A stretch of 64,000 nt of DNA, taken from contig MHWA01000004.1 in the NCBI GenBank assembly GCA_001825335.1, forward strand, positions 35,341-99,340, in the 5' to 3' direction. Position numbers and translations under genes: made by a program. The notes under the pieces are model-generated. The model worked only from the letters and a program-made list of their open reading frames with translations, ran no database searches and had not been told where the DNA came from. Position 1 is the first letter of the stretch, and the number at the start of each line of letters is the position of its first letter. This DNA comes from Candidatus Zambryskibacteria bacterium RIFCSPLOWO2_01_FULL_35_19 (lineage in GTDB: Bacteria > Patescibacteriota > Minisyncoccia > Phycocordibacterales > WO2-35-19). Below are positions 5,059-28,916 of the stretch, in pieces.

Positions 5059-5071
5059 TTTATTTTAAAAA

Positions 5072-5098
5072 ATACAAGGAGAGTCCTTGTATTTTTTA
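5072..5098 (+). terminator. intrinsic terminator after recG
   Basis: ATACAAGGA GAG TCCTTGTAT, a 9-bp stem followed by TTTTTT. The stem shares the CAAGGA..TCCTTG motif with the in-frame recG element. Confidence 0.6.
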
Positions 5099-5238
5099 GG
5101 TGTGGTATAATCATAAAATACTGTTGGTTTTTATCTTTTTAAAATTGTATAATTTAAAGAGTATTTATATTAATAATCTAATGAGAAAAAAGTCGTGTTT
5201 TAACAAACATAACGCACGACACAATTTCACAAAAACAA

Positions 5239-9045: not shown

Positions 9046-9460
9046 GGGGATGATCGGCCTAGACAATAAGATACATTTGTAAAATGCGAGAGAGAGCTAC
9101 AGTACACTCTTAAAACTGCTATAAAAGATAACTGCAAACAAAGTTGTCGCAAAAGCAAAAACCGTTGTTTCTCCATATTTTGGAGTGGGTGATTTTGCTT
9201 TCGCTTACGTTAGGGCTTAATTTTAAGTCTCGCTAAGCGACGTCAGATTCTTTGATGTCTCATAAAAGAAATCTGGTGTAATAAATTTGAGACTTTGAAA
9301 AATAGTTGCTTCGCTATTTTTTCTAAATGTTGAAGCTCGATATTTTAAGATCTTGTTTGTTCCATACTTAAAATATTTAAACAAACTGCAACAAACTAAC
9401 TCTTGTAGAAATTTTCCAAATCTCTTATTGCATGGCGGTTCGATTCCGCCCATCTCCACA
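9046..9460 (+). ncRNA. ssrA: tmRNA (SsrA) candidate
   Basis: Immediately downstream of smpB. 5' GGGGATG pairs with 3' CATCTCC including a G3:U70 wobble (the alanine identity element); T-arm GGCGGTTCGATTCCGCC; ends ...CATCTCCACA. The tag-peptide frame is not resolved. Listed ORFs 8970..9176 and 9223..9459 overlap it and are treated as spurious. Confidence 0.6.
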
Positions 9461-9477
9461 AAAATAAGGAACGTAGT

Positions 9478-9655: not shown

Positions 9656-10630
9656 TTACAAAAACCCAATGATAGCCACTATAAATAAAAAGTATAAACC
9701 CAAAAGCATAAATGCTTCTTTTTTGCTTATAGTGCTATGAGTCCTTACAAATATCAAAAAGAATAGAGTGGCAGCTATCATAAACAAACGACTAATTAAA
9801 AGAAAGGAGGCGTTACTAATTACAACAGGGTGAATTAAAGCCACCACTCCCAACACTACAGTAGCTGGAATAACAATAGAGCCCAAAAGATTGCCGAGAA
9901 TCATAAAGGTCTCTCCCTTTCTAGCTGAAGCGATAGAAAAGTATACTTCCGGCAAAGCATTACCAAAGCCGACAATCAAAAGACCAACCAAACTAATGGA
10001 TATTTTAAAACTTGAAGCAAAAAAAGAAGCTGACCCCACAACGCCTTGAGTGGCGATAAACAATAAAATAATTCCGAGCAAAACTTTTCCAATATTTTTA
10101 AGAGATTCATTCAAAATTTTCTTCCAATTTTTAGGTTCCTCCTCCCTGTATTTTTTGGTAAACCGCTCTTTCTTGGAAAAAAGCCATCCTAAATAGATTA
10201 TAAAAAGAAACAACAAAATAAACCCGTCAGCTCTTGATAAAACACCATCTATCAAAAGAATGATAGGTAAAATAGCCACGCAAATAGTGAAAATCAAAGA
10301 ACTTTTTACAGTTTGGCTTTCTATTTGTATTTCTTTTTTTGGAGAAAAGAGGACAGCCACAGCCACCGCCAAAGTTAAAGCGGTAAAATTATTACCAAAG
10401 ACATCACCCAAAGATAGTTGGGGTATGCCCTCCATTGCTGAAGTAATACCAACAAAAAAATTAGGCAAAGAAGAGGCAAAAGCCATTACAAAAAAGGCAA
10501 CCACAAACTCTTTCAATCCTAAAAAGTGAGAAAGTTTTACCAAACTAGTAACAACAAGTTCACCTGAAATATATAAAATTCCACAAGAAGCTAAAAATAT
10601 AGCAATGTTTACAAACCAATCCATTATCAA
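9656..10630 (-). CDS. Ca2+/cation antiporter, CaCA family (YrbG-like)
   Basis: 324 aa, about 10 TM segments; two alpha-repeat motifs (AFASSLPNFFVG and GFGNALPEVYFS) characteristic of Na+/Ca2+ exchanger family proteins. Confidence 0.7.
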   Translation of the reverse strand: MIMDWFVNIAIFLASCGILYISGELVVTSLVKLSHFLGLKEFVVAFFVMAFASSLPNFFVGITSAMEGIPQLSLGDVFGNNFTALTLAVAVAVLFSPKKEIQIESQTVKSSLIFTICVAILPIILLIDGVLSRADGFILLFLFIIYLGWLFSKKERFTKKYREEEPKNWKKILNESLKNIGKVLLGIILLFIATQGVVGSASFFASSFKISISLVGLLIVGFGNALPEVYFSIASARKGETFMILGNLLGSIVIPATVVLGVVALIHPVVISNASFLLISRLFMIAATLFFLIFVRTHSTISKKEAFMLLGLYFLFIVAIIGFL

Positions 10631-10952
10631 TTATTATACACAATTTTAACAGCAACTAACTTTATTGATTAAATACAAACAAAAAATCCCCACAAAGCCA
10701 CAGACAAACGAAATCTAAATGATACGAACGAGAAAATAGTGTTTAGAGGAGAGATATTTGTACTTCTTTTCACTTGCGCAAATAGAAGCAATATTACTCA
10801 CACCGTTTCCTTGCTCGCCCGCCATAGCTTTTTAAGCGAAGGAGAGTCGATTAGATTCCATAGTCTGCAGCTCTGTGGGGATTTTTCAAAATTTTATCTG
10901 CACCACGCCAATTTCTTCACAAACCTGCCCCATTAGATATTTCATCTAATGA

Positions 10953-11134
10953 GGTCTTCCAAACACACGACAGTGTCAAGGTTCAACCTTGACACTCTGA
11001 TTCGCGAACTTGGAAAATGAGGTGATGATCGGGGTCACCTCGTATAAACAACCGAAAGAACAATTCCTCGCCGATCGCGAGGATAAAACCGTGGGAGCTT
11101 TTATTAGGTCTGGGTAAAAGCTCCACAAAAACCC
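10953..11134 (+). ncRNA. GC-rich structured repeat unit A (candidate ncRNA, one of three paralogous copies)
   Basis: GGTCTTCCAAACACACGACAG...GGGAGCTTTTATTAGGTCTGGGTAAAAGCTCC..AAAAACCC; four hairpins conserved with copies B and C. Confidence 0.45.
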
Positions 11135-11154
11135 TTAAATCGGGGATAATGGGG

Positions 11155-11373
11155 TCAAAGTGTTCGATTCTCAAACGCAGACTTAACCGCGTTCATAGCG
11201 TCCGCGAGAGAATCAAACACACCTTCAGCCCCCCACGCTCCAGAGAGACGGTATCTATTATCAAACGACCGCTGTGCTGTCGCCATGATACCTCCGTCTA
11301 AAATGCAACGGTAATGGGTGGTGCTTTCTACCACCCACAACAATATACCGTCGGACCAATGTTCCTTTTTCAT
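11155..11373 (-). CDS. hypothetical small protein (72 aa) with conserved GC-rich leader
   Basis: MKKEHWSDGILLWVVESTTHYRCILDGG...; strong SD-like AGGAG/GGGAG upstream; GC-rich codons in an AT-rich genome. Confidence 0.35.
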   Translation of the reverse strand: MKKEHWSDGILLWVVESTTHYRCILDGGIMATAQRSFDNRYRLSGAWGAEGVFDSLADAMNAVKSAFENRTL

Positions 11374-11504
11374 CTCAAATCTCCCTCTAACTCCTCACTT
11401 GGCACATGCCGGCGCATTGGTTTGCGTGATCCGGTCAGGGCTGTGAGAAGTTTGGCAAGGCCATTCGCTTCACCAGCGGGAACCTTGCAGAAACCTAAAC
11501 CGTC
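11374..11504 (-). promoter_or_regulatory. conserved GC-rich 5' leader element, copy 1 (candidate cis-regulatory RNA)
   Basis: About 95 nt are nearly identical to 12588-12690, just upstream of an unrelated ORF: ...CACAGCCCTGACCGGATCACGCAAACCAATGCGCCGGCATGTGCCAAGTGAGGAG... ending in the RBS. Confidence 0.4.
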
Positions 11505-11533
11505 CGTTTTTTCAAAATTTTTTCAAAACAGGC

Positions 11534-11736
11534 GGTCTTCCAAACACACGACAGTGTCAAGGTTCAACCTTGACACTCTGATTCGCGAACTTGGAAAATG
11601 AGGTGATGATCGGGGTCACCTCGTATAAACCAAATGAACAACCCTTCAATTTCTCTCAGGGCAAGCCTCGCCGATCGCGAGGATAAAACCGTGGGAGCTT
11701 TTATTAGGTCTGGGTAAAAGCTCTGGGGAAAAACCC
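11534..11736 (+). ncRNA. GC-rich structured repeat unit B (candidate ncRNA)
   Basis: Same architecture as unit A, with a 19-nt indel (not a multiple of 3) in the central region; directly followed by two intrinsic terminators. Confidence 0.5.
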
Positions 11737-11746
11737 ATGAAGCGAT

Positions 11747-11770
11747 AAGACTCTATTAGAGTCTTTTTTT
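11747..11770 (+). terminator. intrinsic terminator 1 after repeat unit B
   Basis: AAGACTCTA T TAGAGTCTT + TTTTTTT. Confidence 0.55.
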
Positions 11771-11938
11771 CAACTCCCCCAAAAACTGGGGGAGTGTTTT
11801 TTTGGTGGGCGGAAGAAGAAGATTATCCTTCCACCCGTAGCCATTGGCTCTAAATCCGAGCCAAATAGCTACCCCCATAGCCCCGAAGACGACCGCAAGG
11901 GTCGTCAATACAAAAAAAATGGACTCTACTATTCCCAT
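11756..11938 (-). CDS. hypothetical small membrane peptide (60 aa)
   Basis: MGIVESIFFVLTTLAVVFGAMGVAIWLGFRANGYGWKDNLLLPPTKKTLPQFLGELKKRL; a single TM helix; RBS GAAGGAG upstream. The listed ORF 11756..12142 is trimmed because its N-terminal part is a translation of repeat unit C. The peptide's 3' end overlaps the plus-strand terminators convergently. Confidence 0.3.
   Translation of the reverse strand: MGIVESIFFVLTTLAVVFGAMGVAIWLGFRANGYGWKDNLLLPPTKKTLPQFLGELKKRL
11774..11803 (+). terminator. intrinsic terminator 2 after repeat unit B
   Basis: CTCCCCCAAAAACTGGGGGAG + TGTTTTTTT. Confidence 0.55.
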
Positions 11939-12034
11939 TTTTATTTTTCTCCTTCTCTCTCCCCCGCTTTTCCCCGAGGGTGGGAAAATTCTAAACCAAA
12001 CGATTTCTAAAATTAAAAAAATCAGAAATCGCGT

Positions 12035-12235
12035 GGTCTTCCAAACACACGACAGTGTCAAAGACGGTCTTTGACATCCTGATTCACGAACTTGGAAAAT
12101 GAGGTGATGATCGGTATCACCTCGTATAAACTGAATGAACAACCCTTCAATTTCTCTCAGGGCAAGCCTCGCCGATCACGAGGATGAAACCATGGGAGCT
12201 TTTTAGGTCTGGGTAAAAGCTCCGGAAAAAAACCC
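12035..12235 (+). ncRNA. GC-rich structured repeat unit C (candidate ncRNA)
   Basis: A diverged copy; the hairpins are kept by compensatory changes (GTGTCAAGGTTCAACCTTGACAC becomes GTGTCAAAGACGGTCTTTGACAT; GGTGATGATCGGGGTCACC becomes GGTGATGATCGGTATCACC). Confidence 0.45.
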
Positions 12236-12242
12236 AGAAGAT

Positions 12243-12587
12243 CTAGCTCTTCGCTAACTTGCGGATACCAATGCGTCCACGCCCTTCTTCTGCATTTTCT
12301 AGGCCGTTGGAGCGCATTATTTCCGGCCATTGGGCCAGGCCGGACCTGAAAAGCTTACCGGTGTTGTTTCCGGTTATCCAGTACCCCGGGAAGGGCGTCT
12401 TCGCGTTTACTCTTTTTACCAATTCCTCGTATTTGAGGAATTCCCCTTCTTCCATCGACCGGGAAACAACCATCCCGATCCACATCTTAATCTGATTAAT
12501 ACTGAAAGCCGGCTCTATACCGGCCTCCTCTCTTTTTGGATTCCTGTTATATTTGTGTGTCACAGGGAACGGACTTACGTTCGTCAT
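12243..12587 (-). CDS. hypothetical protein (114 aa) with conserved GC-rich leader
   Basis: MTNVSPFPVTHKYNRNPKREEAGIEPAF...; protein-like composition; preceded by leader copy 2. Confidence 0.35.
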   Translation of the reverse strand: MTNVSPFPVTHKYNRNPKREEAGIEPAFSINQIKMWIGMVVSRSMEEGEFLKYEELVKRVNAKTPFPGYWITGNNTGKLFRSGLAQWPEIMRSNGLENAEEGRGRIGIRKLAKS

Positions 12588-12735
12588 TTCAAATCTCCTC
12601 CCAACTCCTCACTTGGCACATGCCGGCGCATTGGTTTGCGTGATCCGGTCAGGGCTGTGAGAAGTTTAGCAAGGTCATTCGCTTCGATTCGACCACTCTT
12701 GCAAGTGGAAGCAGCGGACCTTGCAGAAATTTAGG
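12588..12735 (-). promoter_or_regulatory. conserved GC-rich 5' leader element, copy 2
   Basis: Nearly identical to 11374-11475, plus a 31-nt insertion near its 5' end. Confidence 0.4.
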
Positions 12736-12932
12736 AATTGTCTTCCACCTCATCGGTGGATAAATTCACAACCCCTCTTGCCACACCAAATTTAGATTAC
12801 ATCCGCACTGCCTAAGCAGATTGGGACCATCATTTAGTTTGGCGAAGAGGAACTACGATAGTGTTCTGGCAAAACCAGAATTTTTCACATTTCATTCCCA
12901 ATCGCTATGATATTGTCAATGACCTTCAAAGA

Positions 12933-12973
12933 AAAAGACGACTAACTCTCCTAGAAGAATCAGTCGTCTTTTT
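12933..12973 (+). terminator. intrinsic terminator closing the GC-rich locus
   Basis: AAAGACGACT (18-nt loop) AGTCGTCTTT + TTT. Confidence 0.5.
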
Positions 12974-13206
12974 CCAAAGCTTTCTGCTTTGTAGAGCTTA
13001 CGCATAATTCATGATTTTTGATTCATGATTATGCTCCGCTCGTGACTCTCTCCTCTAAAAGATTGCCTTTCTTAACTGTCTAAAGTATAGCATAGTTCAC
13101 TTTTTTTGTCAAGGAAAATTTCTTTTTTCTTACCGAGATTGTCAAAATATGGCTTAAAATAAGGCGATTATCAAAATACTTTTCAGCATCTAACTACCCG
13201 TCAAAC

Positions 13207-13235
13207 CCGCCAATCGATTGGCAGGTTTGTTTTTA
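13207..13235. terminator. palindromic (bidirectional) terminator after the capA-like gene
   Basis: CCGCCAATCGATTGGCAGG followed by TTTGTTTTTAT. Confidence 0.45.
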
Positions 13236-14033
13236 TAAATCTACAAGGCAAGTTCTACCATCTCTGTTTAAAGAAACTTTGTGTTCAATGATATTAATTT
13301 CTCCCCTTTTAATCACCACTTCCAAAACCAAACCAGTAGAAACATTTTTGTTCCAATATTGGTCAAAGATAAAGTTGCCGAGAGAATAATAAATTATCGT
13401 CTCTCCTATTTTTTCAGAAGGGAGGATAACGTGCGGGTGTGAACCAATGACAAGGTCAGCTCCAGCTTGAGCAAACATTTTTGCATAATTTTTTACTCTC
13501 ACTGGAGGCAAGATATATTCATCACCCCAGTGAGTATAGACAAAGACCATTTGTCCTTTTGATTTTTCGTCATCTATTTTTTGAACCACTTTTGAAGCAG
13601 AGTCGCCATCAAACTCGTTATAAGATATGAAAGATACTTTTATCCCCGCTATTTTAGCCCTATAAACAGATTCATCTCCAGCCGCTCCTCCAAAATAATC
13701 CACTCCTGCCTCGTCTAAATATTTTTTAGTTGAAGATATACCTTCTTTGCCAAAATTATTTATATGATTGTTTCCTAAATTTACCATCTTTATATTGTTT
13801 TTGGCTAAAAGTTTGGCAACATTGGTAGGAAAAGTAAATACATAATTGTTATCACTACCGGATGTAGTAAACAAACTAACTGATGCATTTTCAGTAATTG
13901 GTCCTTCTAAATTACCTACTATTAAATCAGCTTCTTTTAAAAAACCAGAAATACAAGAAAATACATAATCTTCTCCATTCTCATACATCATCTTTCTTAT
14001 TTGCCTATCAAAAAAAATATCACCCACAAACAA
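13233..14033 (-). CDS. CapA/PGA-capsule family metallophosphoesterase
   Basis: 266 aa; motifs GNLEGP, NLGNNH, HWGDEY, GSHPHV. The start is uncertain: the listed start is TTG, and an upstream ATG (14114-14116) opens a signal/TM segment in another frame. Confidence 0.6.
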   Translation of the reverse strand: MFVGDIFFDRQIRKMMYENGEDYVFSCISGFLKEADLIVGNLEGPITENASVSLFTTSGSDNNYVFTFPTNVAKLLAKNNIKMVNLGNNHINNFGKEGISSTKKYLDEAGVDYFGGAAGDESVYRAKIAGIKVSFISYNEFDGDSASKVVQKIDDEKSKGQMVFVYTHWGDEYILPPVRVKNYAKMFAQAGADLVIGSHPHVILPSEKIGETIIYYSLGNFIFDQYWNKNVSTGLVLEVVIKRGEINIIEHKVSLNRDGRTCLVDL

Positions 14034-14501: not shown

Positions 14502-15121
14502 TTAATACTGGCTCTGTTTTGGGCGATAGGAGATGGCTTCAAGGATGTGGGAGGGAGTGATTTCAAAAGATGAATCTAGGTCAGCGATGGTGCGGGCCAA
14601 TTTTATTATCTTATGATAAGAGCGAGCAGAAAGATCTAGAGTTTTGGCTGATTTATTCAAAATTTCCTTAACCTCATCTGATATTTTTAAAATAAGAGTG
14701 ATATCTCTAGCGCTCATTTCGGAATTAGTAGCTATTTTTCTATTAGCATCTTTAAATCTTTTTTCTTGAATGTTTCTAGCTTTGACTATCCTATCTCTCA
14801 TCGGGATACTTTCGCTTCTTTCTGCTTTTTCGGTCAGTTTTTCATGGTCTACTTTTGAAACTTCTGTCCATATATCTATACGATCTATTATAGGTCCAGA
14901 AATTTTCCTTTTGTATCTTTCAATTTGCAAAGGCGCACAGGTGCAAGGTTTGCCTTTGATACCGTAGTTGCCACAAGGGCACGGATTCATAGCCGCTATT
15001 AATATAAAATGAGCTGGAAATTTAACGGTACCTTTAGCTCTAGATATAGAGACCACTTTTTCTTCCAATGGCTCTCTTAAAGATTCAATGGCTTTGTTTT
15101 CAAATTCAGGAAATTCATCAA
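14502..15121 (-). pseudogene. comM: 3' fragment (C-terminal half) of a comM/yifB-family gene split by the integrative element
   Basis: Encodes ...LDEFPEFENKAIESLREPLEEKVVSISRAKGTVKFPAHFILIAAMNPCPCG...ISYRPKQSQY, about 90% identical to the C-terminal half of the intact copy at 31416..32951. Homology stops at 15121; the listed ORF (14502..15167) gains a fortuitous Met from element DNA. Confidence 0.7.
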
Positions 15122-15432
15122 GGATGTTCGGTTTGCAAATGGACTTTTTTATGAAGCTGCGCAACACTTTTTTATTTTAAAGAGCCAACTCTTACTCCAC
15201 TTCTATAAGTTTAACAAGTTCTGCAAATTTTGCATAAGTTTTCTACGAACAAGAAATCTTCTACTCTTAAGGAAGCAGTTTTTATTCTGTCATTATGTAT
15301 GCTCGTGCGCGTGAATTAACGTTCAACGTTGCACAGCAGTCATAAAATCCTAACTGTAAACAAGCTGTTAAAACCTAAAAAAGCTTTATTTTAAGGTCTA
15401 TAATATGAATCTAGTGTAAAATAGCGTAAATA

Positions 15433-16938
15433 CTAGAACAAGGTAGACTGCTCTTTGTGTGGATTTGTGGATAACTTTTCTTCCTTTGCAGATAAATTTT
15501 TATGGGGTATATAACTATTGTTTGGATCATTTTTTGATGAAGATGACGACTGCAAAATTCCCCAAGAAATAAGCTCATTTAATTTTCTTAGTGCGTAGGG
15601 TTTAGATTTACCCAATATTTCCTGACATTTTGTTGAGTTTATTTCTTTTTCTTTCTCAACCACTTTTAAAATCTTTTTGTGTTCTGTGTCTAATTTAATA
15701 TTTTTTAAAATTGAATCTGGTATGATAATTTTTTCTCCCCCGTCAACTATAGATTTATCGCCCCCATTAAAGATGACCTGGAACCTGTCTGGAAATTCGC
15801 CAAATTCCGGCTCTTTAAGACCAGCTTCTCCGCAAAGATGTATCATTCTTTTTAATCCCGTTCCCCTTTTATCCATATATCCAAGTTGAACTAACAGGTC
15901 AGCAATAATAGGATTTCTAGTTTTTGGTATAAAATCTCCGGACAAAATAGTTTCTACAGTAAGAGGAGCTATCAGACCTCCAGGATTTTGGATCATAACT
16001 TTTTTACCATGAATCTTCAGCTGAATTTCTGATCCGCTATCACTATAATCTCTATGCGTGATCGCATTGATTACGGCTTCCCTGATTGCCTCAATAGGTA
16101 TATCCGGTATTTCTGTCCTTTCGAAACCTACAACTTTTGCCGAAACTTTTATATTTCTTCTAACAAAACTTTCAAAATCTTTTATTTGTTCGAATATATT
16201 TCCGCTAAATTCAGCTATATCATCCCAATCAGTTGAATCCGGATCAGATTTTGCTTCTGCTCTTATTCTTGAGTTCGGCAAAAAATCCTGAGGTGTTTTT
16301 CCAAATAACAACAATCCGGCTATCGTCGGCTTAGATTCTCCGTTGGTGTTTGTCAAAATTTTCATTCTGCAAAGAAGTTTTATCAAATCATCCCCTATTA
16401 TTTGAGAGCGCTCCCTCTTTTCCAGAGTTACTTTAATGAATTCCAAATCAAGATCTTCAATTGTAGAATTTGTGACTGGTCTATTATCGCACACCTGACT
16501 ATTTCTTCTATATAATTCGGCGATTTCTTCTTCGTTCGCTTCAACATTATTTGAACCTCTGCGTATATAAACTTTCCCGTTTGCCTTATAGGGCGGACTA
16601 TCTCCTCGTTCACAATGAACGATCACGATATGGTGTCCACCATCTTTGAAAAATTCAATCTTTGGAAATGGGTTTGGTTCCGGATTGCATCTGCCTCTTA
16701 TTTTATTAACCAGATTAGATTCTAACGTCTGGGGCAACATTTCACCAAGACCTACAACTTTTCTCTCGTGACCATCCTCTTGTACCCCAAAAATAATTTT
16801 TCCGCCTCTGGTATTATAAAAGGCAACTATAGTTTTTATATCTCTGTCTTTGTCTTCATTCATTCCTAAAGCTGCCCTGAATTCCAGATCATCGTTTTCA
16901 AAATCGTCTAGCAAACTATTAAATTCATCCAAATTCAT
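15433..16938 (-). CDS. COG2865-type ATP-dependent DNA-binding regulator (Schlafen AlbA_2-like N-domain, HATPase_c_4-like C-domain)
   Basis: 501 aa; IVAFYNTRGGKIIFGV...; C-terminal AITHRDYSDSGSEIQLKIHGKKVMIQNPGG. Confidence 0.5.
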   Translation of the reverse strand: MNLDEFNSLLDDFENDDLEFRAALGMNEDKDRDIKTIVAFYNTRGGKIIFGVQEDGHERKVVGLGEMLPQTLESNLVNKIRGRCNPEPNPFPKIEFFKDGGHHIVIVHCERGDSPPYKANGKVYIRRGSNNVEANEEEIAELYRRNSQVCDNRPVTNSTIEDLDLEFIKVTLEKRERSQIIGDDLIKLLCRMKILTNTNGESKPTIAGLLLFGKTPQDFLPNSRIRAEAKSDPDSTDWDDIAEFSGNIFEQIKDFESFVRRNIKVSAKVVGFERTEIPDIPIEAIREAVINAITHRDYSDSGSEIQLKIHGKKVMIQNPGGLIAPLTVETILSGDFIPKTRNPIIADLLVQLGYMDKRGTGLKRMIHLCGEAGLKEPEFGEFPDRFQVIFNGGDKSIVDGGEKIIIPDSILKNIKLDTEHKKILKVVEKEKEINSTKCQEILGKSKPYALRKLNELISWGILQSSSSSKNDPNNSYIPHKNLSAKEEKLSTNPHKEQSTLF

Positions 16939-16992
16939 TAATCAGAGAATACTACTTTTCAGATTCTATTACAATAATTTATGCCATCTGAA

Positions 16993-17295
16993 TCAACAGA
17001 GTTTATTATTTTCAAACATCCAGACGAATTCTTTCAGATTCTTACCCAAAATATAGTATCTAACGCCAGATTTTGTACCCATTCGTATTGGTTTTAGAAT
17101 ATGGCCATAGTAGTTTATGTATTTTATTGTAGTCTTGTAGCTCTTTCTCCAGTAAAAAATTTCTTTTTCGCATATCTGCCTTGCTGAATAGTATTCCGTA
17201 TCTACAGGATCAAACCTGTGCATTGGCTTGTAGGCCTCGCGCGTGCTCCCACGATCCTCGCTGGACTCATTATTTGTGTTTGTAATGGTATTCAT
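16993..17295 (-). CDS. hypothetical protein (100 aa)
   Basis: ORF immediately downstream of the recombinase; no recognisable motif. Confidence 0.3.
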   Translation of the reverse strand: MNTITNTNNESSEDRGSTREAYKPMHRFDPVDTEYYSARQICEKEIFYWRKSYKTTIKYINYYGHILKPIRMGTKSGVRYYILGKNLKEFVWMFENNKLC

Positions 17296-17300
17296 TATCT

Positions 17301-19061
17301 TTAAACTAAAGTTCTGGGGAAATACATTAGGGGGTTGGCTCGGAGTATTTCCGCCTGCCTTGCGGCTAAAGTCATCGTTTTGATGTTTAAGACAAGCGGG
17401 AAACCTTCTTTTTCTTCCGAAACTTTGGAACCAAGCTTAATTGTTGCCGTCTCGGTTGAACTCGGGAAGCGAAAAACAACCGAAGCGTAATCCTCTTTTG
17501 CATAAAGAGTGATCCTTTCAACAAAAAGTCTGACTATTTCCATTTTTTCTTCGTAAGATACATCGTCCAGTCTCACTTTTACTTTTTCGTAAGCTTTTCC
17601 GATAGCCACTTCCCTTTCTGCTTTCTCTTTTTTAGTGAGCAGAGATTGCCTCAATCTGTTCGCTTCGTCATTAAGCTTCTTTTCTTCGGCCCCATTTGAA
17701 TTACTATGCTCACTGTATTTTTCTTTGTCTATTTGACCGTTGATGTAGAGGTCGTCTACTCGGCTTTGTCTAATCTGAACAGACGATAGCTCTACAGCTA
17801 TTTGCTCGAGCCTCTCTTTGACATTCTCCGGGCTTTCTTCCCTATAGATGTATTTCTCCAAAGGGTCAAACATATTCTTTGGATTCTTAAGGATTTCTTT
17901 GAGACATTCCCAGATTGGTTCTAGTCTGGATTCGGCATAAACCGGACACCACTTACAACGCTTTGAAGTACCGATCGGTTTGTCATTGTGATAAGTACCA
18001 TGGTAGTACCTGCCTCCGGCCATAGGCCACTTTTTTGTTGGCGGTTGGTAGCCAGAAAACATTTTGTATCCACACACTCCGCAATATATGAGTTTTGCAT
18101 ACATGTAATCTCTCTTTTGATTTCGCCTTGCAAGTTCTCTGTTTTTTAGAAGTTGTGTTTTTGCCGCTTCAAACATTTCTCTGGTGATTATGGGTTGTGT
18201 CTCCATTGGTATCCAATCCTCTTTCGGTCTAAGCATTCTTTTATCGGTAATGCTTGTGAGATTATTGAATGGTCTTTTGTATTTTCTGTAGAAAAAATTT
18301 CCAGTGTAGGTTTCGTTGGTCAAAATGCGACCGATAGTTCGTTTGTGCCAGTAGTCTAAGGTCTTTCGTTTTTTATACTTAGCAACATACGGAGCTGAAA
18401 CTTTAAGTTGATTCATTCTCTTTTCAATTTCTCGTAAGGGAAGTTTTTCGTCGACTGCCCAATGAAAAAGTTTTTTGACGATTTTGGCTTGTTCCGGTTC
18501 AATAACGAGTCTCTTTGTGGTTTTATCTACTCGGTAGCCGTAAGTCGCAACACCAGTCACAAAGTTTCCTTGTTTAGCGGCCTGAAGTTTGCCACCCAGA
18601 GTTCTCTCGCGAATCATTCCCCTTTCAAACTGAGCAAACATGGCTAGTATTTGCATGACCATTTGTCCAACGGGAGTTGAAGTGTCAATCGGCTCTGTCA
18701 CGGATCGGAAAATAACTTTCAGCGCTTCAAAATGTTCAATGATTCCCAAGAACACTTTTAAGTTTCTGGCCAGACGGTCAATTTTATAAACTAAAACCAC
18801 ATCAAACTCTTTTTGCTCAGCGTCTTTAAGAAGCTGTGTCAGTCCAGTTCTTTTTTCGGGATGGGTGCTACCGGATATAGTGTCTTTGTAGATGTGAGAT
18901 TCTTCAAGTTCAAATCCTTGTGATTTACAGTAGTTTTGTCCTCTTTCAAGTTGTACTTCTGGACCAAAATGTTCTTCATCATCTTGGCCTGTTGTCGAAA
19001 CGCGAATATACAAAGCCGCTTTTAATTTTTTATCCTCTTCTTTTTTAGTTGTCTCTATCAT
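17301..19061 (-). CDS. large serine recombinase (resolvase N-domain, recombinase domain, zinc ribbon, coiled coil)
   Basis: 586 aa; catalytic region ALYIRVSTTGQ; DRLARN; zinc ribbon CGVCGYKM...CKWC; long C-terminal coiled coil. Confidence 0.9.
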   Translation of the reverse strand: MIETTKKEEDKKLKAALYIRVSTTGQDDEEHFGPEVQLERGQNYCKSQGFELEESHIYKDTISGSTHPEKRTGLTQLLKDAEQKEFDVVLVYKIDRLARNLKVFLGIIEHFEALKVIFRSVTEPIDTSTPVGQMVMQILAMFAQFERGMIRERTLGGKLQAAKQGNFVTGVATYGYRVDKTTKRLVIEPEQAKIVKKLFHWAVDEKLPLREIEKRMNQLKVSAPYVAKYKKRKTLDYWHKRTIGRILTNETYTGNFFYRKYKRPFNNLTSITDKRMLRPKEDWIPMETQPIITREMFEAAKTQLLKNRELARRNQKRDYMYAKLIYCGVCGYKMFSGYQPPTKKWPMAGGRYYHGTYHNDKPIGTSKRCKWCPVYAESRLEPIWECLKEILKNPKNMFDPLEKYIYREESPENVKERLEQIAVELSSVQIRQSRVDDLYINGQIDKEKYSEHSNSNGAEEKKLNDEANRLRQSLLTKKEKAEREVAIGKAYEKVKVRLDDVSYEEKMEIVRLFVERITLYAKEDYASVVFRFPSSTETATIKLGSKVSEEKEGFPLVLNIKTMTLAARQAEILRANPLMYFPRTLV

Positions 19062-19650
19062 GATTTTTTTGCTGACAAATTTTCAGTATCTTTTCTGGAG
19101 TTGCAAACTCAATTTCTTTTGATTTTATTTTTATTAACTGCCTTATGAGATCTTCTTTGTTTAGAGATTCAATCTCTTTGATTAAATCCGCTAGTAAATA
19201 ATCTCGTAAATCTTCAATACTATTCATAGTTTCAGGAAGCCCTTATTTGTTATTTCTAAAATATGCTTTTAAATAAAGGTTTCCTAAATACTATTGTTAT
19301 AGGTGTGTATATATAAGTACATATACTTACACATTTCTTTTGTTAACAACTGATGCGGGCATTGGTGCGCTTTACAGAATCTAAGGCCTTTTTGAGTCGA
19401 AAAGAAAAAGCCCACTATATTTTGAATTTTCTTTGATTACGACGCTTCAGAGAGTCTTTTTCCATCTCAGCAAATACCCCTAACATTAGCAGAATATCCC
19501 TTCCAAAAAGTTTCTCTCGTTCAGCAGTGTCACTGTTTCTATCATTTAACACACGTGGATACATTGCCACGTTTTTGATATTTTTTGATTTCATAAATTT
19601 AGATTTTTTAAGTTTGTAAATTTTCAAAGTTTAATTTCACTGATTTTCTC

Positions 19651-20403
19651 CTATGATTCTGAATTCTTACTCCATTCGTAAGGCCCCAAAGCCAAAAATT
19701 GGGCAACTCGCTCCTCACTGGAGAAAAACCAAGCGACAGTTTGAGTTTCAGCAATTCCCTTCCAGTACTCGTTTTCCCTCACATTTTTGAGAGCACAGAC
19801 AAGCTCCTCTGGCCAATACTCGTTAAATCTTGCTTTGATATTTTCTTTAGCTTCTCTGGTCAATCTTTGTCCAGAACGGATTATGTTTGAATAAAGTGTA
19901 TACATTTTTTCTATTTTCTTTTCTATTGCTTTACTATCTATTGTGCTTGCATTTTGTTCATTACTTAACGCTTGCACTTCGTTCAAGGGGGTGGAGCCAC
20001 TTTTTTCTCCACCCGCCTGAACTTGTTGCAAGACTAGAGTATATTCGCTTGTCCACCCCTTGCGTTTCCTAATCGTGATGAACCCCTTATCTTCTAACTT
20101 ATGAAGTGACGTAACGACTTGTCTGTAGCTGAGACCTGTTCCAGTCCCGATCTTGCCACCGCCATTTGCTATTTGTTCTATGCTCATTGTGTCCGAGTTT
20201 TTCTGGAAGCCCCAGGTTCTGCGTAAGATAAACAAAAGCACTCGTGTTTCAGAGCCATTAAGCAGGTGCATGTATGAATCCAGGAGACGAGGAAACATCC
20301 AGAAATTTTTCTTCATTTCTGGAGGAAAGCCAGGAAATTGTTTGGGGTTGTCTTGCATATTTATTAATCTTCGTCCTTCCCATCCTCTTCTTCTGCGAGC
20401 CAA
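19651..20403 (-). CDS. winged-helix DNA-binding protein, phage replisome-organiser/initiator-like
   Basis: 250 aa; RVLLFILRRTWGF...MSIEQIANGGGKIGTGTGLSYRQVVTSLHKLEDKGFITIRK, which resembles the N-terminal domain of phage replication initiation proteins. Confidence 0.4.
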   Translation of the reverse strand: MARRRRGWEGRRLINMQDNPKQFPGFPPEMKKNFWMFPRLLDSYMHLLNGSETRVLLFILRRTWGFQKNSDTMSIEQIANGGGKIGTGTGLSYRQVVTSLHKLEDKGFITIRKRKGWTSEYTLVLQQVQAGGEKSGSTPLNEVQALSNEQNASTIDSKAIEKKIEKMYTLYSNIIRSGQRLTREAKENIKARFNEYWPEELVCALKNVRENEYWKGIAETQTVAWFFSSEERVAQFLALGPYEWSKNSES

Positions 20404-20693
20404 TCTCCAATTGTCATTATCTCTTCGTAGGAGTATGTGAATTTTAGATCAATCTCTCTGCCCTGAATGCGAAATACAATATTTGGACTACCCATATTTG
20501 TTAGAGAATCGTCCAAAAAAGATGGATAGAACGAAATATCAAGCCTTATGGGTTCAGTCATATGTTTGTCGTTGGTGGTATCCCATAGAATTTTGTTAAC
20601 AGCTACTACTACTTTTTCAGCAATTTCTTTAAACGAACTTTTATTAAATTCTTGTGACATTTTTTTGCCACCTTTCTTATTTGTTGTTGACAT
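20364..20693 (-). CDS. hypothetical protein (109 aa)
   Basis: Acidic C-terminus; overlaps the next gene's start by 40 nt, consistent with an operon. Confidence 0.3.
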   Translation of the reverse strand: MSTTNKKGGKKMSQEFNKSSFKEIAEKVVVAVNKILWDTTNDKHMTEPIRLDISFYPSFLDDSLTNMGSPNIVFRIQGREIDLKFTYSYEEIMTIGDWLAEEEDGKDED

Positions 20694-20763
20694 AATTTTA
20701 AATAATTCTTAAGAAGGAGTGTGGGAGCGGACTGACTATTGACCACCCCCAGTTCCTTTACGA

Positions 20764-21195
20764 TTACACTTTTCTATCTCTTGGGGGAACAGGAATGTTT
20801 TGAACTGATTTGTATGTGTTCTTGGTTTTCTTTTTTATCTGCTTTTTTGTCAAATAGCTTGTGTCATCTCTCATTGCCCAATATTCGTCTGGGTCATTGA
20901 AGTACATACTCGGTGTTCCCGCCTCAAACGCACCACTGGAATATTCCAAAGTGTATTTTGGATCATACGCCTTGCCGAAGCTGATTTGTCTGTTAAGCAC
21001 AAGTGGAAGTTTTTTCTTGGAAGGCAACAGTCTTATCCTCAGGATGATATCCCTGGGTATAATCTTGTCTCCTCCACTGAAAAACCCTCTTTTCTCCAAT
21101 TCTGTCGTAATCAACCATTCGGCATCATCTAACAAGTACCAGAGATATTTTTGGTCTTCTGGAAACTCTTTAATTTTTTTAATTTTGTAATTCAT
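20764..21195 (-). CDS. hypothetical protein (143 aa)
   Basis: ORF with plausible composition; no motif. Confidence 0.3.
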   Translation of the reverse strand: MNYKIKKIKEFPEDQKYLWYLLDDAEWLITTELEKRGFFSGGDKIIPRDIILRIRLLPSKKKLPLVLNRQISFGKAYDPKYTLEYSSGAFEAGTPSMYFNDPDEYWAMRDDTSYLTKKQIKKKTKNTYKSVQNIPVPPRDRKV

Positions 21196-21274
21196 AGATT
21201 TTATGCGGTCGGAACGCGGAGCACTTCTACAAAGTACTCCGCTCCTGCCACCGCAATTTATTTACTAACTCAAA

Positions 21275-21589
21275 CTACTCCAGTGGAATCTGGAACTGCG
21301 CCGTCTTTGTATGCTTGCGATAGTATCTAGAGGCCAACTCCATGATAGGAGTCTTGCCTCTAAGGTCCAGTTTGATCTGAGCTTCTTTGAGCTTCGCTGG
21401 TATTTTGCCGAATGCTTTCACTAGACTTGTGGCTATCTGGTTTGCTCCGTCTTCCAGTATGGCCGGCACTATTCCGTAACCTCTGGGCGGCATTGAGTTT
21501 TTGAATTGATATTTCATAACAATTCTTGTTTCTTGTTGGATTATTTTGTTCGCTTTGGAGAAGTATGCTAAACAAACGAGTAAAAGCAC
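21275..21589 (-). CDS. hypothetical protein (possible frameshift with overlapping ORF 21360..21653)
   Basis: Two overlapping reverse-strand ORFs in different frames; the downstream frame has the more protein-like sequence. Confidence 0.25.
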   Translation of the reverse strand: MLLLVCLAYFSKANKIIQQETRIVMKYQFKNSMPPRGYGIVPAILEDGANQIATSLVKAFGKIPAKLKEAQIKLDLRGKTPIMELASRYYRKHTKTAQFQIPLE

Positions 21590-22092
21590 CCGACAAAGAG
21601 TTGCCGGAACCGACCTCTTGCTTTTTTTGTTTGTTGCTCATTTTGACGAACAAAAAATCCGCTTATAATTTGCGGATGCAAGTGGTCAGCATTACGAGAT
21701 TCTGAAGCTGATGCAAACGCATCCTGTCTGAATCCCGTTGGGGCTGAGTCCTTAGTTGTAAGTTTACACTACCATAACCTCTAATTTTTACTTTATGGAA
21801 CCTGTGGATAACGATAAAATACAACACGAAACTTTTAATCTGCAAGACACCCAGATTGCCCGTTAAAAATAAAGCCATATAAAACCATTACTTATACCCC
21901 AAAATTCAGCAGCCGTGAACGCGCAGCCCGACGAAATGATGCTAGCCACCTACTCCTAGTCAGTGCCCAGAAAGGATGTGGCAGAGCAAAGCAGTGCCCA
22001 TTTTCTTAACTTTTCACTTTGAAAGTTGTAAACGAGTGAGGTTCGCACGGAAGCCATAATAAATGAGATTGATTGTCTCTCGCATCTTTTAT

Positions 22093-22614
22093 CTACTCAA
22101 ATTTATCAACAATTTTGTCCAGTTTGTCTGACGCTTCCAGTATCATATTCATAGACTGGTCATAGAGTTTAGAGTCATGTTTGTCTATTGCTCTTCTGTA
22201 AATCGGCATGGAATCTCTAAATAATTCAAAAGCTTGTAAAACTTCTTGATGTATAAGAATCAAGTCTTCAGGCGGAACAATGGCTTTAACTCTTTCGTAA
22301 GATTTTTCTATGATTAGTGTGTGTTTTGCCAACTCCGTCACATCCTTATTTGTCCAGTATTGTTGATACGATTGTAAAAGATTTCGTGCCTCCATTGAAT
22401 TAGTCACATCTTCATAAACACCAATCACTTGGTTGAAGTAAACGGAGGTGCTGTATTTGTTTGCTACATATTTATTATCAGATGGTAGAGACGAAGAAGG
22501 ATTTGATCCACCAGAAAAAGCTACATAAGCCCACAACATTAGAAGCACAAAAAATAAAATAGTCAAAAATCTTTGTGTCTTCTTTGTTTTCACCTCACCA
22601 TTTGTAGAATCCAT
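22093..22614 (-). CDS. hypothetical membrane-anchored protein (173 aa)
   Basis: N-terminal TM LTILFFVLLMLWAYVAF, then a soluble domain. Confidence 0.35.
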   Translation of the reverse strand: MDSTNGEVKTKKTQRFLTILFFVLLMLWAYVAFSGGSNPSSSLPSDNKYVANKYSTSVYFNQVIGVYEDVTNSMEARNLLQSYQQYWTNKDVTELAKHTLIIEKSYERVKAIVPPEDLILIHQEVLQAFELFRDSMPIYRRAIDKHDSKLYDQSMNMILEASDKLDKIVDKFE

Positions 22615-22968
22615 AAAATTTGAATTAAAAAAAACCTGCTACTAATGCAGGCGGCAAGACTCCGACAAAAAGCCCGCCACCAGGAAGGTCCGAAGACCTC
22701 TATAAGAGTTTCCCCTTATAACGTTGAGAACGCCCTGAATGACGGGTTGTTTGTTCTCAACGATTTTCGACCATGCCAGAGTTTGAAGCTACTGGTTTAG
22801 GTCTTTCGGACTATTTAGTTGTATTTATATAGTAATACTTGCCTCTCGTTAAGTAAACAAGTAATTTGAAAAGGCCTTATTATAAATTTATACAAAAAGG
22901 TATAATGACCTTACAAATCCATAGCCTAAACCGTTTTAGCGGCATGGCAAAAACCAACCACGAAATCC

Positions 22969-23994
22969 TCATTGAGGCCTAATTTGCGGTTGGGCGGTCG
23001 ATGAGGATTTTATATTATTCGCTTTTCCTTTAGTCCATTTTTTCGGCACTCTCCGATTCAGTTTTTGCAAGAGTTTAATCTTCAGATTTCTGGATCGGCA
23101 ATGAGAAAGGATTCCGTTATAAGAAGAAAAATTCTTATCTGTCGCTTTCCTTAGTATTCTCTTTTTGGTTTTGGTTCTCAAAATTCTGTAGCTAGGAAAA
23201 CAAACATAGCCAAGGTAATCAATGCCGCTTGAATAAGTTTTCAAGACTATCTTATCTGGATGGATTCTTAATTTTAAATTTTGCTCAGTGAAGTTTTGAA
23301 TTTTGGAAAGGCACAATTCCAAAAAACTTTTGTCTGTGTGCATAAGGATAAAATCATCAGCATATCTGATATATCCCTTGACTTTCAGTTCATGTTTCAC
23401 AAATTGATCAAGTTTATCCATGTAAATATTGGCAAAAATTTGAGAAGTGAGGTTACCAAGCGGTATGCCGGAACCAAAACTTTCCGTTATATCTTCAAAA
23501 AGTTTGATCAGTCTGCAATCAAAAGTCTCTTTTCTTAATATTTTAAGAAGTATTTCGTGGTCAACGGAATCAAAAAATTTCCTGATATCCAGCTTCAATA
23601 CCCACAATGTCCTGCTGTTATTACGAGAAAGCTTAAGTCCCATTTTATAAAGACGCTTAATGGCCCAGTGAGTGCCTTTGTATTTTCTGGAAGACCAAGA
23701 GTCAAAGATAAACTTCTTATCCCACATCTGCTCTATAACTCTGATTATTGCATGATGCAAAAGCCTGTCCCTGACGCTTGCCTTGTGAATATGCCTCTTT
23801 TTTGGATCATTAATGAAAAAGGAAAAATAACCGCCATGTTTATATACCCCATTTACCAAATCTTCATGCAATTTAAAAATATTGTCTTCAAGGTTAAGCT
23901 CAAATTCGGCGACATCCTTCTTTCTCCTTTTGTCCCTGCGAAACTCGGTCCATGCGTCGAACAAATTTTTTAGTGAAATAATTTTTTCAAACAT
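22969..23994 (-). CDS. DGR reverse transcriptase
   Basis: 341 aa; the N-terminus matches the DGR RT pattern (ELNLEDNIFKLHEDLVNGVYKHGGYFSFFINDPKKRHIHKASVRDRLLHHAI); IPLGNLTSQIFANIYM; catalytic IRYADDFILMH. Confidence 0.85.
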   Translation of the reverse strand: MFEKIISLKNLFDAWTEFRRDKRRKKDVAEFELNLEDNIFKLHEDLVNGVYKHGGYFSFFINDPKKRHIHKASVRDRLLHHAIIRVIEQMWDKKFIFDSWSSRKYKGTHWAIKRLYKMGLKLSRNNSRTLWVLKLDIRKFFDSVDHEILLKILRKETFDCRLIKLFEDITESFGSGIPLGNLTSQIFANIYMDKLDQFVKHELKVKGYIRYADDFILMHTDKSFLELCLSKIQNFTEQNLKLRIHPDKIVLKTYSSGIDYLGYVCFPSYRILRTKTKKRILRKATDKNFSSYNGILSHCRSRNLKIKLLQKLNRRVPKKWTKGKANNIKSSSTAQPQIRPQ

Positions 23995-23995
23995 A

Positions 23996-24376: not shown

Positions 24377-24410
24377 ATGTCCGTCCGTTTTTTCTTTACG
24401 AGAGTGACTT

Positions 24411-24528
24411 CGGAGGGAAACAACACCCAAATTGTCGTTGCGTTGCCCTGGGTTATTGTTGTTGACGTTGACGCCGTTGCGGTCAGCGTTGCCGAGATTC
24501 ACAAGCTTGCCGTTAGAGGAAAGGGTTG
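24411..24528 (-). repeat. DGR template repeat (TR)
   Basis: ~118 nt matching both VRs. All ~13-14 mismatches to each VR fall where the TR has T on the plus strand, which is A on the transcribed minus strand. It translates as ...NLGNADRNGVNVNNNNPGQRNDNLGVVSL, rich in AAC codons. A hairpin follows its 3' end at 24362-24391. Confidence 0.8.
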
Positions 24529-28902: not shown

Positions 28903-28916
28903 ACAGCTTATTTATA

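What the first reader, a model, noticed from the sequence alone, without database searches (positions are those of the whole stretch)
11374..12735. Two unrelated small genes share a ~95-nt conserved GC-rich 5' leader (candidate cis-regulatory RNA)
Minus-strand ORFs 11155..11373 (72 aa) and 12243..12587 (114 aa) have no detectable protein similarity. Each is preceded by the same ~95-nt sequence, which ends in a strong AGGAG/GGGAG RBS: ...CACAGCCCTGACCGGATCACGCAAACCAATGCGCCGGCATGTGCCAAGTGAGGAG....

The sequence can fold with CUCAC/GUGAG closing a CCGG...CCGG internal stem. An identical leader in front of different genes is the pattern expected of a riboswitch or protein-binding leader. Copy 2 carries a 31-nt insertion in a peripheral position.
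Basis: seen in the sequence. Interest (0 to 1): 0.55.

Follow-up and report, generated by a model that had tools for sequence, protein, structure and literature searches.

The report
Shared leader in small-gene cassette array
The shared GC-rich leader is real, but it is best read as one swappable non-coding module of a strain-variable array of small foreign genes in a Parcubacteria genome, each gene ending in a conserved hairpin, and not as a riboswitch.

Summary
Two unrelated minus-strand ORFs (72 aa and 114 aa) are each preceded by the same leader: 102 nt at 94% identity, with a 65-nt identical core. Identity stops at the ATG.

The leader matches no Rfam family. It was not found outside this groundwater Parcubacteria population. 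Both downstream genes have no known function: orf114 is an ORFan, and orf72 has one homologue elsewhere.

The leader lies in a 2-kb GC-rich island (about 10,930-13,110) containing three small ORFs. Each ORF is followed by a ~200-nt repeat ending in a 60-nt imperfect hairpin, UUCCAAG...UUGGAAGAC. Covariation supports this hairpin, and it folds only on the ORF-sense strand.

Sister strains with 96-100% identical flanks carry different ORFs between the same hairpins. These include a reversed PIN toxin cassette and hammerhead-like ribozymes. One strain has a second array elsewhere in its genome, and related species have no array.

The leader is one of two alternative 5' modules. Its predicted three-helix fold pairs the Shine-Dalgarno sequence. 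Recombination between its two copies accounts for observed deletion variants.

The layout is integron-like, but no integrase or canonical attC core was found. Best reading: a structured 5'-UTR module of a new variant of cassette array. Function is inferred, not shown.

The parts
12588..12729 (-). Leader copy 2 (L2), the 5' UTR of orf114. It includes a 26-nt insertion (12686-12711) in the terminal loop of helix Pa.
11374..11493 (-). Leader copy 1 (L1), the 5' UTR of orf72. Predicted helices: P0 (UUUCU / GGAGA, pairs the SD), Pa (GCAAGGYY / RRCCUUGC) and Pb (AACUUCUCAC / GUGAGGAGUU).
12243..12587 (-). orf114, cassette ORF. ORFan.
11756..11938 (-). orf60, cassette ORF, predicted small membrane peptide. 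A 90%-identical copy lies in sister array L023.
11155..11373 (-). orf72, cassette ORF. Its only homologue (69% identity) lies in 55-57% GC contigs with no leader and no 3' repeat. Predicted beta-meander plus C-terminal helix; nearest fold matches are small uncharacterised phage proteins (E >= 0.12, not significant).
12036..12236 (-). Repeat R3, consisting of the Y-type 3' module (12098-12236) plus the cassette-end hairpin UUCCAAG...UUGGAAGAC (12036-12097).
11535..11742 (-). Repeat R2, consisting of the Y-type 3' module plus the cassette-end hairpin (11535-11596).
10954..11137 (-). Repeat R1, consisting of the Y-type 3' module (lacking a 19-22-nt segment present in R2 and R3) plus the cassette-end hairpin (10954-11015).
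11939..12035 (-). T1a hairpin with U-rich tail, followed by the 'sp60-type' leader. This is the alternative 5' module, used by most cassettes in the sister arrays.
11494..11534 (-). T1b hairpin plus GGTTTAGG junction, lying between the R2 hairpin and L1.
10928..10953 (-). T1c hairpin that closes the array.
12740..12760 (-). Array-entry mini-hairpin UCCACC-GAUGA-GGUGGA followed by AGAC. It shares the TGGAAGAC core with every cassette-end hairpin.
12761..13112 (-). 'up' platform. It holds a strong promoter TTGACA-17-TATACT (13112-13084), a terminator-like palindrome (12974-12931) and then about 190 nt of conserved sequence. The whole platform also stands in front of a second array in strains L020 and L039.

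Best explanation
The leader is a structured 5'-UTR module. It belongs to a strain-variable array of small, foreign-looking gene cassettes in Parcubacteria bacterium GW2011_GWC1_34_10.

Each unit of the array is built from the same parts, in this order: a T1 hairpin with a U-rich tail; a leader, either the common 'sp60' type or the L type found here; a short ORF; a 3' module (type X or Y); and a ~60-nt imperfect hairpin UUCCAAG...UUGGAAGAC. Sequence similarity between units breaks off directly after that hairpin.

The two L copies arose by recombination or gene conversion inside the array. That explains why identity stops exactly at the start codons of unrelated ORFs. The two copies in turn act as direct repeats whose recombination deletes or reorders cassettes.

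At the RNA level, L is predicted to fold into three helices. The closing helix P0 pairs the functional Shine-Dalgarno sequence with an upstream UUUCU tract. Helix Pb sequesters a second GAGGAG tract. The most likely role is therefore control of translation initiation and/or stability of the cassette mRNA in cis, not metabolite sensing.

Shown here: the anatomy, strand-specific structure of the hairpin and of Pa, population variability, and absence from known families. Inferred: the effect on translation or stability, and the mechanism by which new ORFs enter the array.
For: Repeat and boundaries.

Fold: z about -3, and the sense strand is 6-9.5 kcal/mol more stable than the antisense. The SD nucleotides are mostly paired with probability 0.8-1.0. 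Between copies, Pa changes U.G/U.G to U-A/C-G, and the 26-nt insertion forms its own hairpin in the Pa loop. The 65-nt Pb core is identical in both copies while the flanks differ by about 10%.

Array context: the region is a GC island. The cassette-end hairpin has 94.9% of cells paired, against 48% or less for shifted controls. Five pairs carry compensatory changes, and there are invariant G.U wobbles on the sense strand. As RNA, the sense strand is 3-14 kcal/mol more stable than the antisense. The covariance model scores 88 bits on the sense strand and 47 on the antisense.

Sister strains: flanks are 96-100% identical, but the ORFs between the same hairpins differ. One cassette is a reversed PIN toxin cassette, and L020/L039 carry a second array.

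Population variants: L014 is up-L2/L1 hybrid-orf72. L031 and L004 lack the L1-orf72-R1 unit. L008 is R-T1b-L1/L2 hybrid-orf114-R-down.

Related species (NaCa antiporter 68-73% identical) have no array. The only orf72 homologue sits in unrelated 55-57% GC contigs without L or R. T1 types assort independently of hairpin variant and of ORF.
Against: Only two natural copies of L exist, and they are identical across Pb. There is therefore no covariation evidence for Pb or P0, and the Pa evidence rests on two positions.

No transcript data were available. Transcription start sites are unknown, so P0 may not exist in the real mRNA.

Some population variants come from short-read assemblies and could be chimeric across repeats. 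L002's apparent 'insertion' is in fact a scaffold gap of Ns.

No recombinase was found next to either array. The way ORFs enter the array is therefore unexplained, and simple homologous recombination would suffice for the variants actually seen.

The sp60-type leaders do not show a significant SD-occluding fold. SD occlusion is thus not a general property of the array's leaders.
Confidence: 0.6

Rival explanations
1. L is a riboswitch or protein-binding regulatory leader. It senses a common signal and co-regulates orf72 and orf114.
For: The same structured leader precedes two unrelated genes. The predicted fold occludes the SD, which is a possible expression platform. The 65-nt Pb core is perfectly conserved while its flanks vary.
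Against: No Rfam match at any threshold. The motif is confined to one population. The downstream genes have no known function or metabolic link. The fold consists of plain hairpins, with no conserved multi-helix junction that can be demonstrated. Sister cassettes use a different leader.
Confidence: 0.12
2. L has no function of its own. It is a recent duplicate carried along by gene conversion or unequal crossing-over between array units, and its similarity reflects recency, not selection.
For: There are only two copies, 94% identical, inside an array that demonstrably recombines. The identical core could be a single conversion tract.
Against: Identity ends precisely at the start codons, and both copies keep correct RBS-ATG spacing. 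The Pa substitutions preserve pairing on the sense strand only, and the insertion is placed in a loop. The fold is more stable than shuffled sequences.
Confidence: 0.2
3. L is an RNA-processing element, either a new self-cleaving ribozyme or an RNase site. It would cut cassette mRNAs out of a long array transcript, as the hammerheads in the sister arrays may do.
For: Hammerhead type III-like ribozymes with a full catalytic core occupy intergenic positions in sister arrays (L023:433-487 at 41.8 bits; L022:1044-1098 at 38.9 bits). A strong platform promoter upstream of the array could drive a long transcript.
Against: No match to any ribozyme family in Rfam. Nothing in the sequence indicates a catalytic core. 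The fold is two ordinary hairpins closed by a third helix.
Confidence: 0.08

Closest known systems
Integron cassette arrays lacking an integrase (CALINs) and sedentary chromosomal integrons
   Same: The array is a tandem run of short, mostly ORFan genes. Each gene is followed by a same-orientation imperfect hairpin of about 60 nt whose stem base is conserved and whose interior varies. An entry site shares the core sequence. Cassette content differs between near-identical strains. A sister array carries a toxin-antitoxin cassette in reverse orientation. No integrase lies adjacent, as in CALINs.
   Different: No RYYYAAC/GTTRRRY boxes occur on either strand. The hairpin folds better on the ORF-sense strand, with G.U wobbles, which is more RNA-like. 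Cassettes carry long conserved 5' leaders, T1 hairpins and 100-140-nt 3' modules. No IntI was found in the 64-kb window.
DUF1874 motif (Weinberg et al. 2017, PMC5737381)
   Same: It is a multistem element found in consecutive intergenic regions, usually in potential 5' UTRs. The authors discussed it as a possible unusual attC, and saw no integrase at the array end.
   Different: No sequence or structure match to that Rfam model. The present array has separate 5' and 3' modules instead of one motif.
Structured translational-operator and stabiliser 5' UTRs (SD-occluding leaders)
   Same: The predicted closing helix pairs the SD, and stable 5' hairpins stand upstream of a strong RBS.
   Different: No known regulator or ligand is associated with it. 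Evidence is thermodynamic prediction only.
Hammerhead ribozymes in bacterial intergenic regions
   Same: They are present, at scores below the Rfam gathering threshold but with a full catalytic core, in the sister arrays in the sense orientation. This suggests processing of array transcripts.
   Different: None occurs in this window. L does not resemble a hammerhead.

Membership tests
Known riboswitch classes (guanidine-III, ZTP, SAM and all other Rfam classes) | Match to the family covariance model | tested here: not met
   No hit on L at gathering thresholds or at E <= 10, both strands
Riboswitch (generic) | Aptamer conserved across taxa upstream of functionally related genes | tested here: not met
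   L found only in this population. There were 0 hits in species genomes and IMG/VR and none in the phage or plasmid collections. The downstream genes have no known function
Riboswitch (generic) | Expression platform coupled to the aptamer | tested here: inconclusive
   SD pairing is predicted with probability mostly 0.8-1.0, but no alternative conformer or ligand is known
Integron / CALIN | Two or more attC-like imperfect hairpins in one orientation with ORFs between them | tested here: met
   Three hairpins in the window and up to five per sister contig. Structure is supported by covariation
Integron / CALIN | attC core boxes R'' RYYYAAC and R' GTTRRRY | tested here: not met
   No such pair in 10900-13150 on either strand. 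The conserved ends are TTCCAAG and GTTTGGAAGAC
Integron (complete) | IntI tyrosine recombinase next to attI and Pc | tested here: not met
   No tyrosine recombinase domain found. Sources: precomputed Pfam annotation for about 2.2-22.6 kb and Pfam scans of the 20 largest ORFs between 19.6 and 52.8 kb. ORFs beyond 52.8 kb, the rest of the window and the rest of the genome were not scanned
Integron / CALIN | Recombination as a folded bottom-strand ssDNA | not testable with these tools
   Here the ORF-sense strand is the better folder. RNA and ssDNA cannot be told apart by sequence
DUF1874 motif | Match to the Rfam model | tested here: not met
Hammerhead ribozyme | CUGAUGA...GAAA core with three stems | tested here: not met
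   None in the window. Present only in sister arrays L022 and L023, below the gathering score
Dispersed intergenic repeats (REP/BIME, Correia-like MITEs) | Many copies scattered in intergenic regions of the genome | tested here: not met
   Copies occur only inside the array within the 64-kb window. The rest of the genome was not available
Intrinsic terminator (for the cassette-end hairpin) | GC-rich stem followed directly by a U tract | tested here: not met
   The hairpin is followed by GAC(C) and was not called by the terminator scan. The next hairpin, T1, has a U-rich tail

The most novel reading that the evidence does not exclude
The island is a previously undescribed kind of gene-cassette platform in CPR bacteria. 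Its units would be delimited by a sense-strand-folding hairpin (UUCCAAG...UUGGAAGAC) and an entry site with the same core. They would be served by an unidentified, non-adjacent recombinase or by transformation-driven recombination. Plug-in RNA modules (the L and sp60 leaders, the X and Y 3' modules, hammerhead ribozymes) would process and tune each captured ORF. L would be the first of these modules to be noticed.
Probability: 0.25. Interest if true: 0.75.

Novelty: new variant of a known kind. Interest (0 to 1): 0.45.

Why it matters
CPR/Patescibacteria have tiny genomes, and little is known about how they acquire and express accessory genes.

This is a compact, fast-turning-over array of foreign small ORFs. 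It has standardised 5' and 3' RNA modules and a structured delimiter. It resembles an integron but fails the integron sequence tests applied here.

If the reading is right, it would point to an alternative route of gene capture and expression in these organisms. It would also add to the unresolved 'motif in consecutive intergenic regions' cases such as DUF1874.

For the leader alone, the practical lesson is that 'same leader, different genes' can arise from cassette modularity rather than from a regulon.

Tried and rejected
- **Rfam.** Scans at gathering thresholds and at permissive E-values on the window, the island, the leader alone and the sister loci gave nothing for L or R.
- **Exact and gapped DNA scans.**
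  - The L core had 0 hits in IMG/VR and in species genomes.
  - The R 3' end and the gapped hairpin pattern had 0 hits in IMG/VR.
  - The gapped hairpin pattern gave 4 single hits in species genomes, with no hairpin: chance.
  - The sp60 and X motifs had 0 hits in IMG/VR.
  - The Y 19-mer gave 2 viral hits inside coding sequence: chance.
  - Four of the eight metagenome hits were bare 19-mers: chance.
- **blastn.** A search of the whole island against the phage and plasmid collections found no match.
- **Protein homology.** orf114 has none, even among 1.8 billion representatives. orf72 has one homologue, in a different context.
- **Protein families and structure.**
  - Pfam and PHROGs gave nothing useful.
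  - The orf114 structure model was too poor to search (pLDDT 56).
  - The orf72 model (pLDDT 80) gave only non-significant matches, to small phage proteins.
- **R as a protein-coding repeat.** Rejected: a 19-22-nt indel and frame breaks separate the copies.
- **L002 'insertion' in L1.** Rejected: it is a run of Ns, a scaffold gap.
- **Recombinase hunt.** Only a large serine recombinase was found, inside an unrelated integrated element. The lineage-specific 401-aa neighbour is a secreted S/T-rich protein, not a recombinase.
- **Plus-strand promoter-like site in each R hairpin.** The TTGACA-18-GAAAAT site is not conserved in the sister hairpins and was not pursued.
- **Y module.** Three hairpins are predicted but show no compensatory changes.
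Full report
**Source and setting**

The window is contig LBPL01000003.1 of assembly GCA_000990165.1, Parcubacteria group bacterium GW2011_GWC1_34_10, from groundwater. The finding lies in a 2-kb island of 45-52% GC in a genome of about 33% GC. The island sits between a PGA_cap gene (13233-14033, minus) and a Na/Ca-exchanger gene, NaCa (9656-10630, minus). It is about 1.5 kb from the tmRNA gene (9046-9461). Everything in the island reads on the minus strand.

**Observation check**

The repeat is real. Region 11370-11471 matches 12584-12685 over 102 nt at 94% identity, with self-blastn E = 3e-40.

- The alignment shows a 65-nt identical core, AAACTTCTCAC...GTGAGGAGTT.
- Identity continues to the ATG of each ORF and is lost immediately inside the coding sequence.
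- Homology resumes upstream of a 26-nt insertion in copy 2 (12686-12711) and extends to TTTCTGCAAGG (11493 and 12729).
- The two ORFs (72 aa and 114 aa) are unrelated.

- Each of three small ORFs is followed within 8-25 nt by a ~200-nt repeat: R3, R2 and R1, at 77-89% identity. The ORFs are orf114 (12243-12587), orf60 (11756-11938) and orf72 (11155-11373).
- All three repeats end in the invariant sequence CACTGTCGTGTGTTTGGAAGACC. After that sequence the three copies diverge at once.
- The core TGGAAGAC, preceded by a mini-hairpin, also lies just upstream of leader copy 2, at the entry to the array (12740-12760).
- The repeats occur nowhere else in the 64-kb window.

**The cassette-end hairpin**

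A metagenome scan with the R 3' end recovered four real relatives (L020, L022, L023, L025) and four chance 19-mers. A protein-based look-up added L039.

Across these contigs the only element present at every unit boundary is a 39-70-nt imperfect hairpin, TTCCAAGTTC...GTTTGGAAGAC. Ten distinct variants were collected.

- On their alignment the proposed structure pairs 94.9% of cells, against 48% or less when the 3' partners are shifted.
- Five pairs carry changes on both sides, for example C-G / U.G / U-A and GG-CC / AG-CU.
- One short variant keeps only the stem base and replaces the whole interior.
- G.U and U.G pairs are invariant on the ORF-sense strand.
- As RNA, the sense strand is 3-14 kcal/mol more stable than the antisense. 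With DNA parameters the gap is smaller.
- A covariance model scores 88 bits on the sense strand and 47 on the antisense.
- The element therefore acts as a folded single strand of the sense orientation. Sequence alone cannot say whether that strand is RNA or ssDNA.

**The array is modular and variable**

L020 and L039 come from a strain whose NaCa gene is 96-97% identical to the window's. At the same position they carry three quite different units.

- The first two hold a 78-aa and a 112-aa ORFan.
- The third is AT-rich and holds a reverse-oriented PIN-domain toxin with a small partner ORF. Its hairpin keeps the array orientation.
- The same strain has a second array about 5 kb away, between a 411-aa secreted-protein gene and recG. 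It is preceded by the same 370-nt 'up' platform. In the window that intergenic region is only 180 nt.

L022 and L023 show further units.

- Some contain hammerhead type III-like ribozymes with a full CUGAUGA...GAAA core. They score 41.8 and 38.9 bits (E = 3e-6 and 2e-5), below the gathering score of 48.5.
- One unit is followed by a cytidylyltransferase-like gene.

After each hairpin comes a T1 hairpin with a U-rich tail, in three types, and a GGTTTAGR junction. Then comes one of two leaders: the common 'sp60' type, or the L type of this finding.

3' modules also come in two types. Y is the 5' part of R. X is GAGACAAGAGCTGACTCTCTGTCTCA....

T1 type, hairpin variant, leader and ORF assort independently. 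The array is thus a mosaic maintained by recombination at several conserved segments.

Related species, with NaCa 68-73% identical, have NaCa directly followed by PGA_cap. They have no array, and the hairpin model finds nothing there.

**Population variants involving the leader**

- L014 comes from a strain that also lacks the element integrated in the Mg-chelatase gene. It reads up, then an L2/L1 hybrid, then orf72. This is the deletion product expected from recombination between the two leader copies.
- L031 and L004 lack the L1-orf72-R1 unit.
- L008 reads R, T1b, an L1/L2 hybrid, orf114, R, then the downstream flank.
- L002's apparent insertion is a scaffold gap.
- Some of these short contigs could be assembly chimeras. 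However, hybrids with private SNPs (L014) and several independent assemblies argue that at least part of the variation is real.

**The ORFs**

- orf114 has no homologue, even among 1.8 billion cluster representatives.
- orf72 has a single 69%-identical homologue. It lies in 55-57% GC contigs, inside a tight run of small overlapping genes, with no L or R.
- The orf72 model (pLDDT 80) is a beta-meander plus a C-terminal helix. Its nearest matches, all non-significant (E >= 0.12), are small uncharacterised phage proteins.
- None of the three ORFs hits Pfam, and PHROGs gives only a weak membrane-protein hit for orf60.
- The ORFs therefore look like captured foreign accessory genes. The non-coding modules are specific to the array.

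**The leader itself**

- Both copies fold into the same three-helix shape. MFE is -48.4 kcal/mol for copy 1 and -54.7 for copy 2, with z about -3. The antisense strand is 6-9.5 kcal/mol weaker.
- P0 pairs an upstream (A/G)(A/G)UUUCU tract with the GGAGAUUU that contains the functional SD. Pairing probability is mostly 0.8-1.0 for those nucleotides.
- Pa is GCAAGGUU/GGCCUUGC in copy 1 and GCAAGGUC/GACCUUGC in copy 2. Two U.G pairs become U-A and C-G, so pairing is kept on the sense strand only. The 26-nt insertion lies in Pa's terminal loop and forms its own hairpin.
- Pb is the 65-nt identical core. It sequesters a second GAGGAG tract.
- The flanks differ by about 10%, so a 65-nt run without any change needs either selection or a recent conversion tract.
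- No Rfam family matches L on either strand, even when only 176 nt are searched at E <= 10.
- L was not found in 185,579 species genomes, IMG/VR, the phage collection or the plasmid collection.

**Interpretation**

I commit to this reading: L is a cis-acting structured 5' UTR that sets translation initiation and/or mRNA stability through its SD-occluding fold and stable 5' hairpins. It is one of two alternative leaders in this system.

- The structural part is supported only by thermodynamics and two pair-preserving substitutions.
- The functional part is inference.
- The sp60-type leader does not show a significant SD-occluding fold, so this is not a general rule of the array.

Rivals:

| Reading | Confidence |
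|---|---|
| A true ligand- or protein-binding switch | 0.12 |
| A functionless recent duplicate | 0.20 |
| A processing or ribozyme element | 0.08 |

**Comparison with known systems**

The layout is integron-like, and specifically CALIN-like.

- Shared features are same-orientation hairpins after short ORFan genes, an entry site sharing the core, rapid cassette turnover, a toxin-antitoxin cassette, and no adjacent integrase.
- It fails defining integron features that could be tested. No RYYYAAC/GTTRRRY boxes occur on either strand. No tyrosine recombinase domain turned up in the precomputed annotation or in the ORFs scanned with Pfam. The better-folding strand is the ORF-sense one, with wobble pairs. 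Cassettes carry long conserved leaders and 3' modules.
- The closest published analogue of the arrangement is the DUF1874 motif, which occurs in consecutive intergenic regions and was discussed as a possible unusual attC (PMC5737381). There is no sequence or structure match to it.
- I found no paper describing such arrays or hammerheads in CPR genomes.

**Verdict**

The riboswitch interpretation is not supported. The leader is a module of a new variant of cassette array. Interest is moderate: the leader alone is ordinary, and the array around it is the more interesting object.

Noticed in passing
window 14502-33836: An integrated element splits a comM-like Mg-chelatase gene into a C-terminal part (14502-15167) and an N-terminal part (33081-33836). 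It carries a large serine recombinase (17301-19061), a Phage_rep_O-like gene (19651-20403), a reverse transcriptase (22969-23994), an AAA_5 gene, a VWA/CobT gene and a second intact Mg-chelatase (31416-32951). Strain contig L014 has an intact 444-aa Mg-chelatase and so appears to lack the element.
   Followed up: partly
window 22685-22803 (-) and 31260-31383 (+): Two LOOT RNAs (RF03000; 73 and 77 bits) lie inside that element. One is 166 nt downstream of the reverse transcriptase gene on the same strand, which suggests a possible RT-LOOT association.
   Followed up: no
L023:433-487 and L022:1044-1098: Hammerhead type III-like ribozymes (41.8 and 38.9 bits, below the gathering score of 48.5) with a full CUGAUGA...GAAA core lie in intergenic positions of the sister cassette arrays, in the sense orientation.
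   Followed up: partly
window 12931-13112 (-): A strong promoter (TTGACA-17-TATACT with upstream TG, 13112-13084) is followed about 110 nt later by a terminator-like palindrome (12974-12931). This may be a small RNA gene at the head of the array platform. The promoter and palindrome are conserved in front of the second array in L020, while the middle is not.
   Followed up: partly
L020:8050-9589 (also L039): A second cassette array, with the same 'up' platform and a related downstream flank, lies between a 411-aa secreted S/T-rich protein gene and recG. The window has only a 180-nt spacer there (5059-5238).
   Followed up: partly
window 11747-11795 (+): Two consecutive plus-strand intrinsic-terminator-like hairpins lie inside the 3' coding end of orf60, antisense to it. 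The hairpin is not conserved in the L023 copy of orf60.
   Followed up: partly
window 10682-10712 / 10856-10886: A 31-nt inverted repeat (81% complementary, arms 143 nt apart) lies in the flank between the array and the Na/Ca-exchanger gene. Part of this flank recurs after the second array in L020.
   Followed up: no
window 11374-11420 and 12588-12634 (-): Both leader copies contain a 15-codon upstream ORF (MRRHVPSEEL...) whose TGA stop overlaps the main ATG (ATGA). No SD precedes it, so this is probably fortuitous.
   Followed up: no
L040-L044 compared with window 9656-14033: Gene order differs between lineages. Related Zambryskibacteria-like genomes have Mg-chelatase, NaCa, PGA_cap. This lineage has Mg-chelatase, PGA_cap, the array, then NaCa.
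   Followed up: partly
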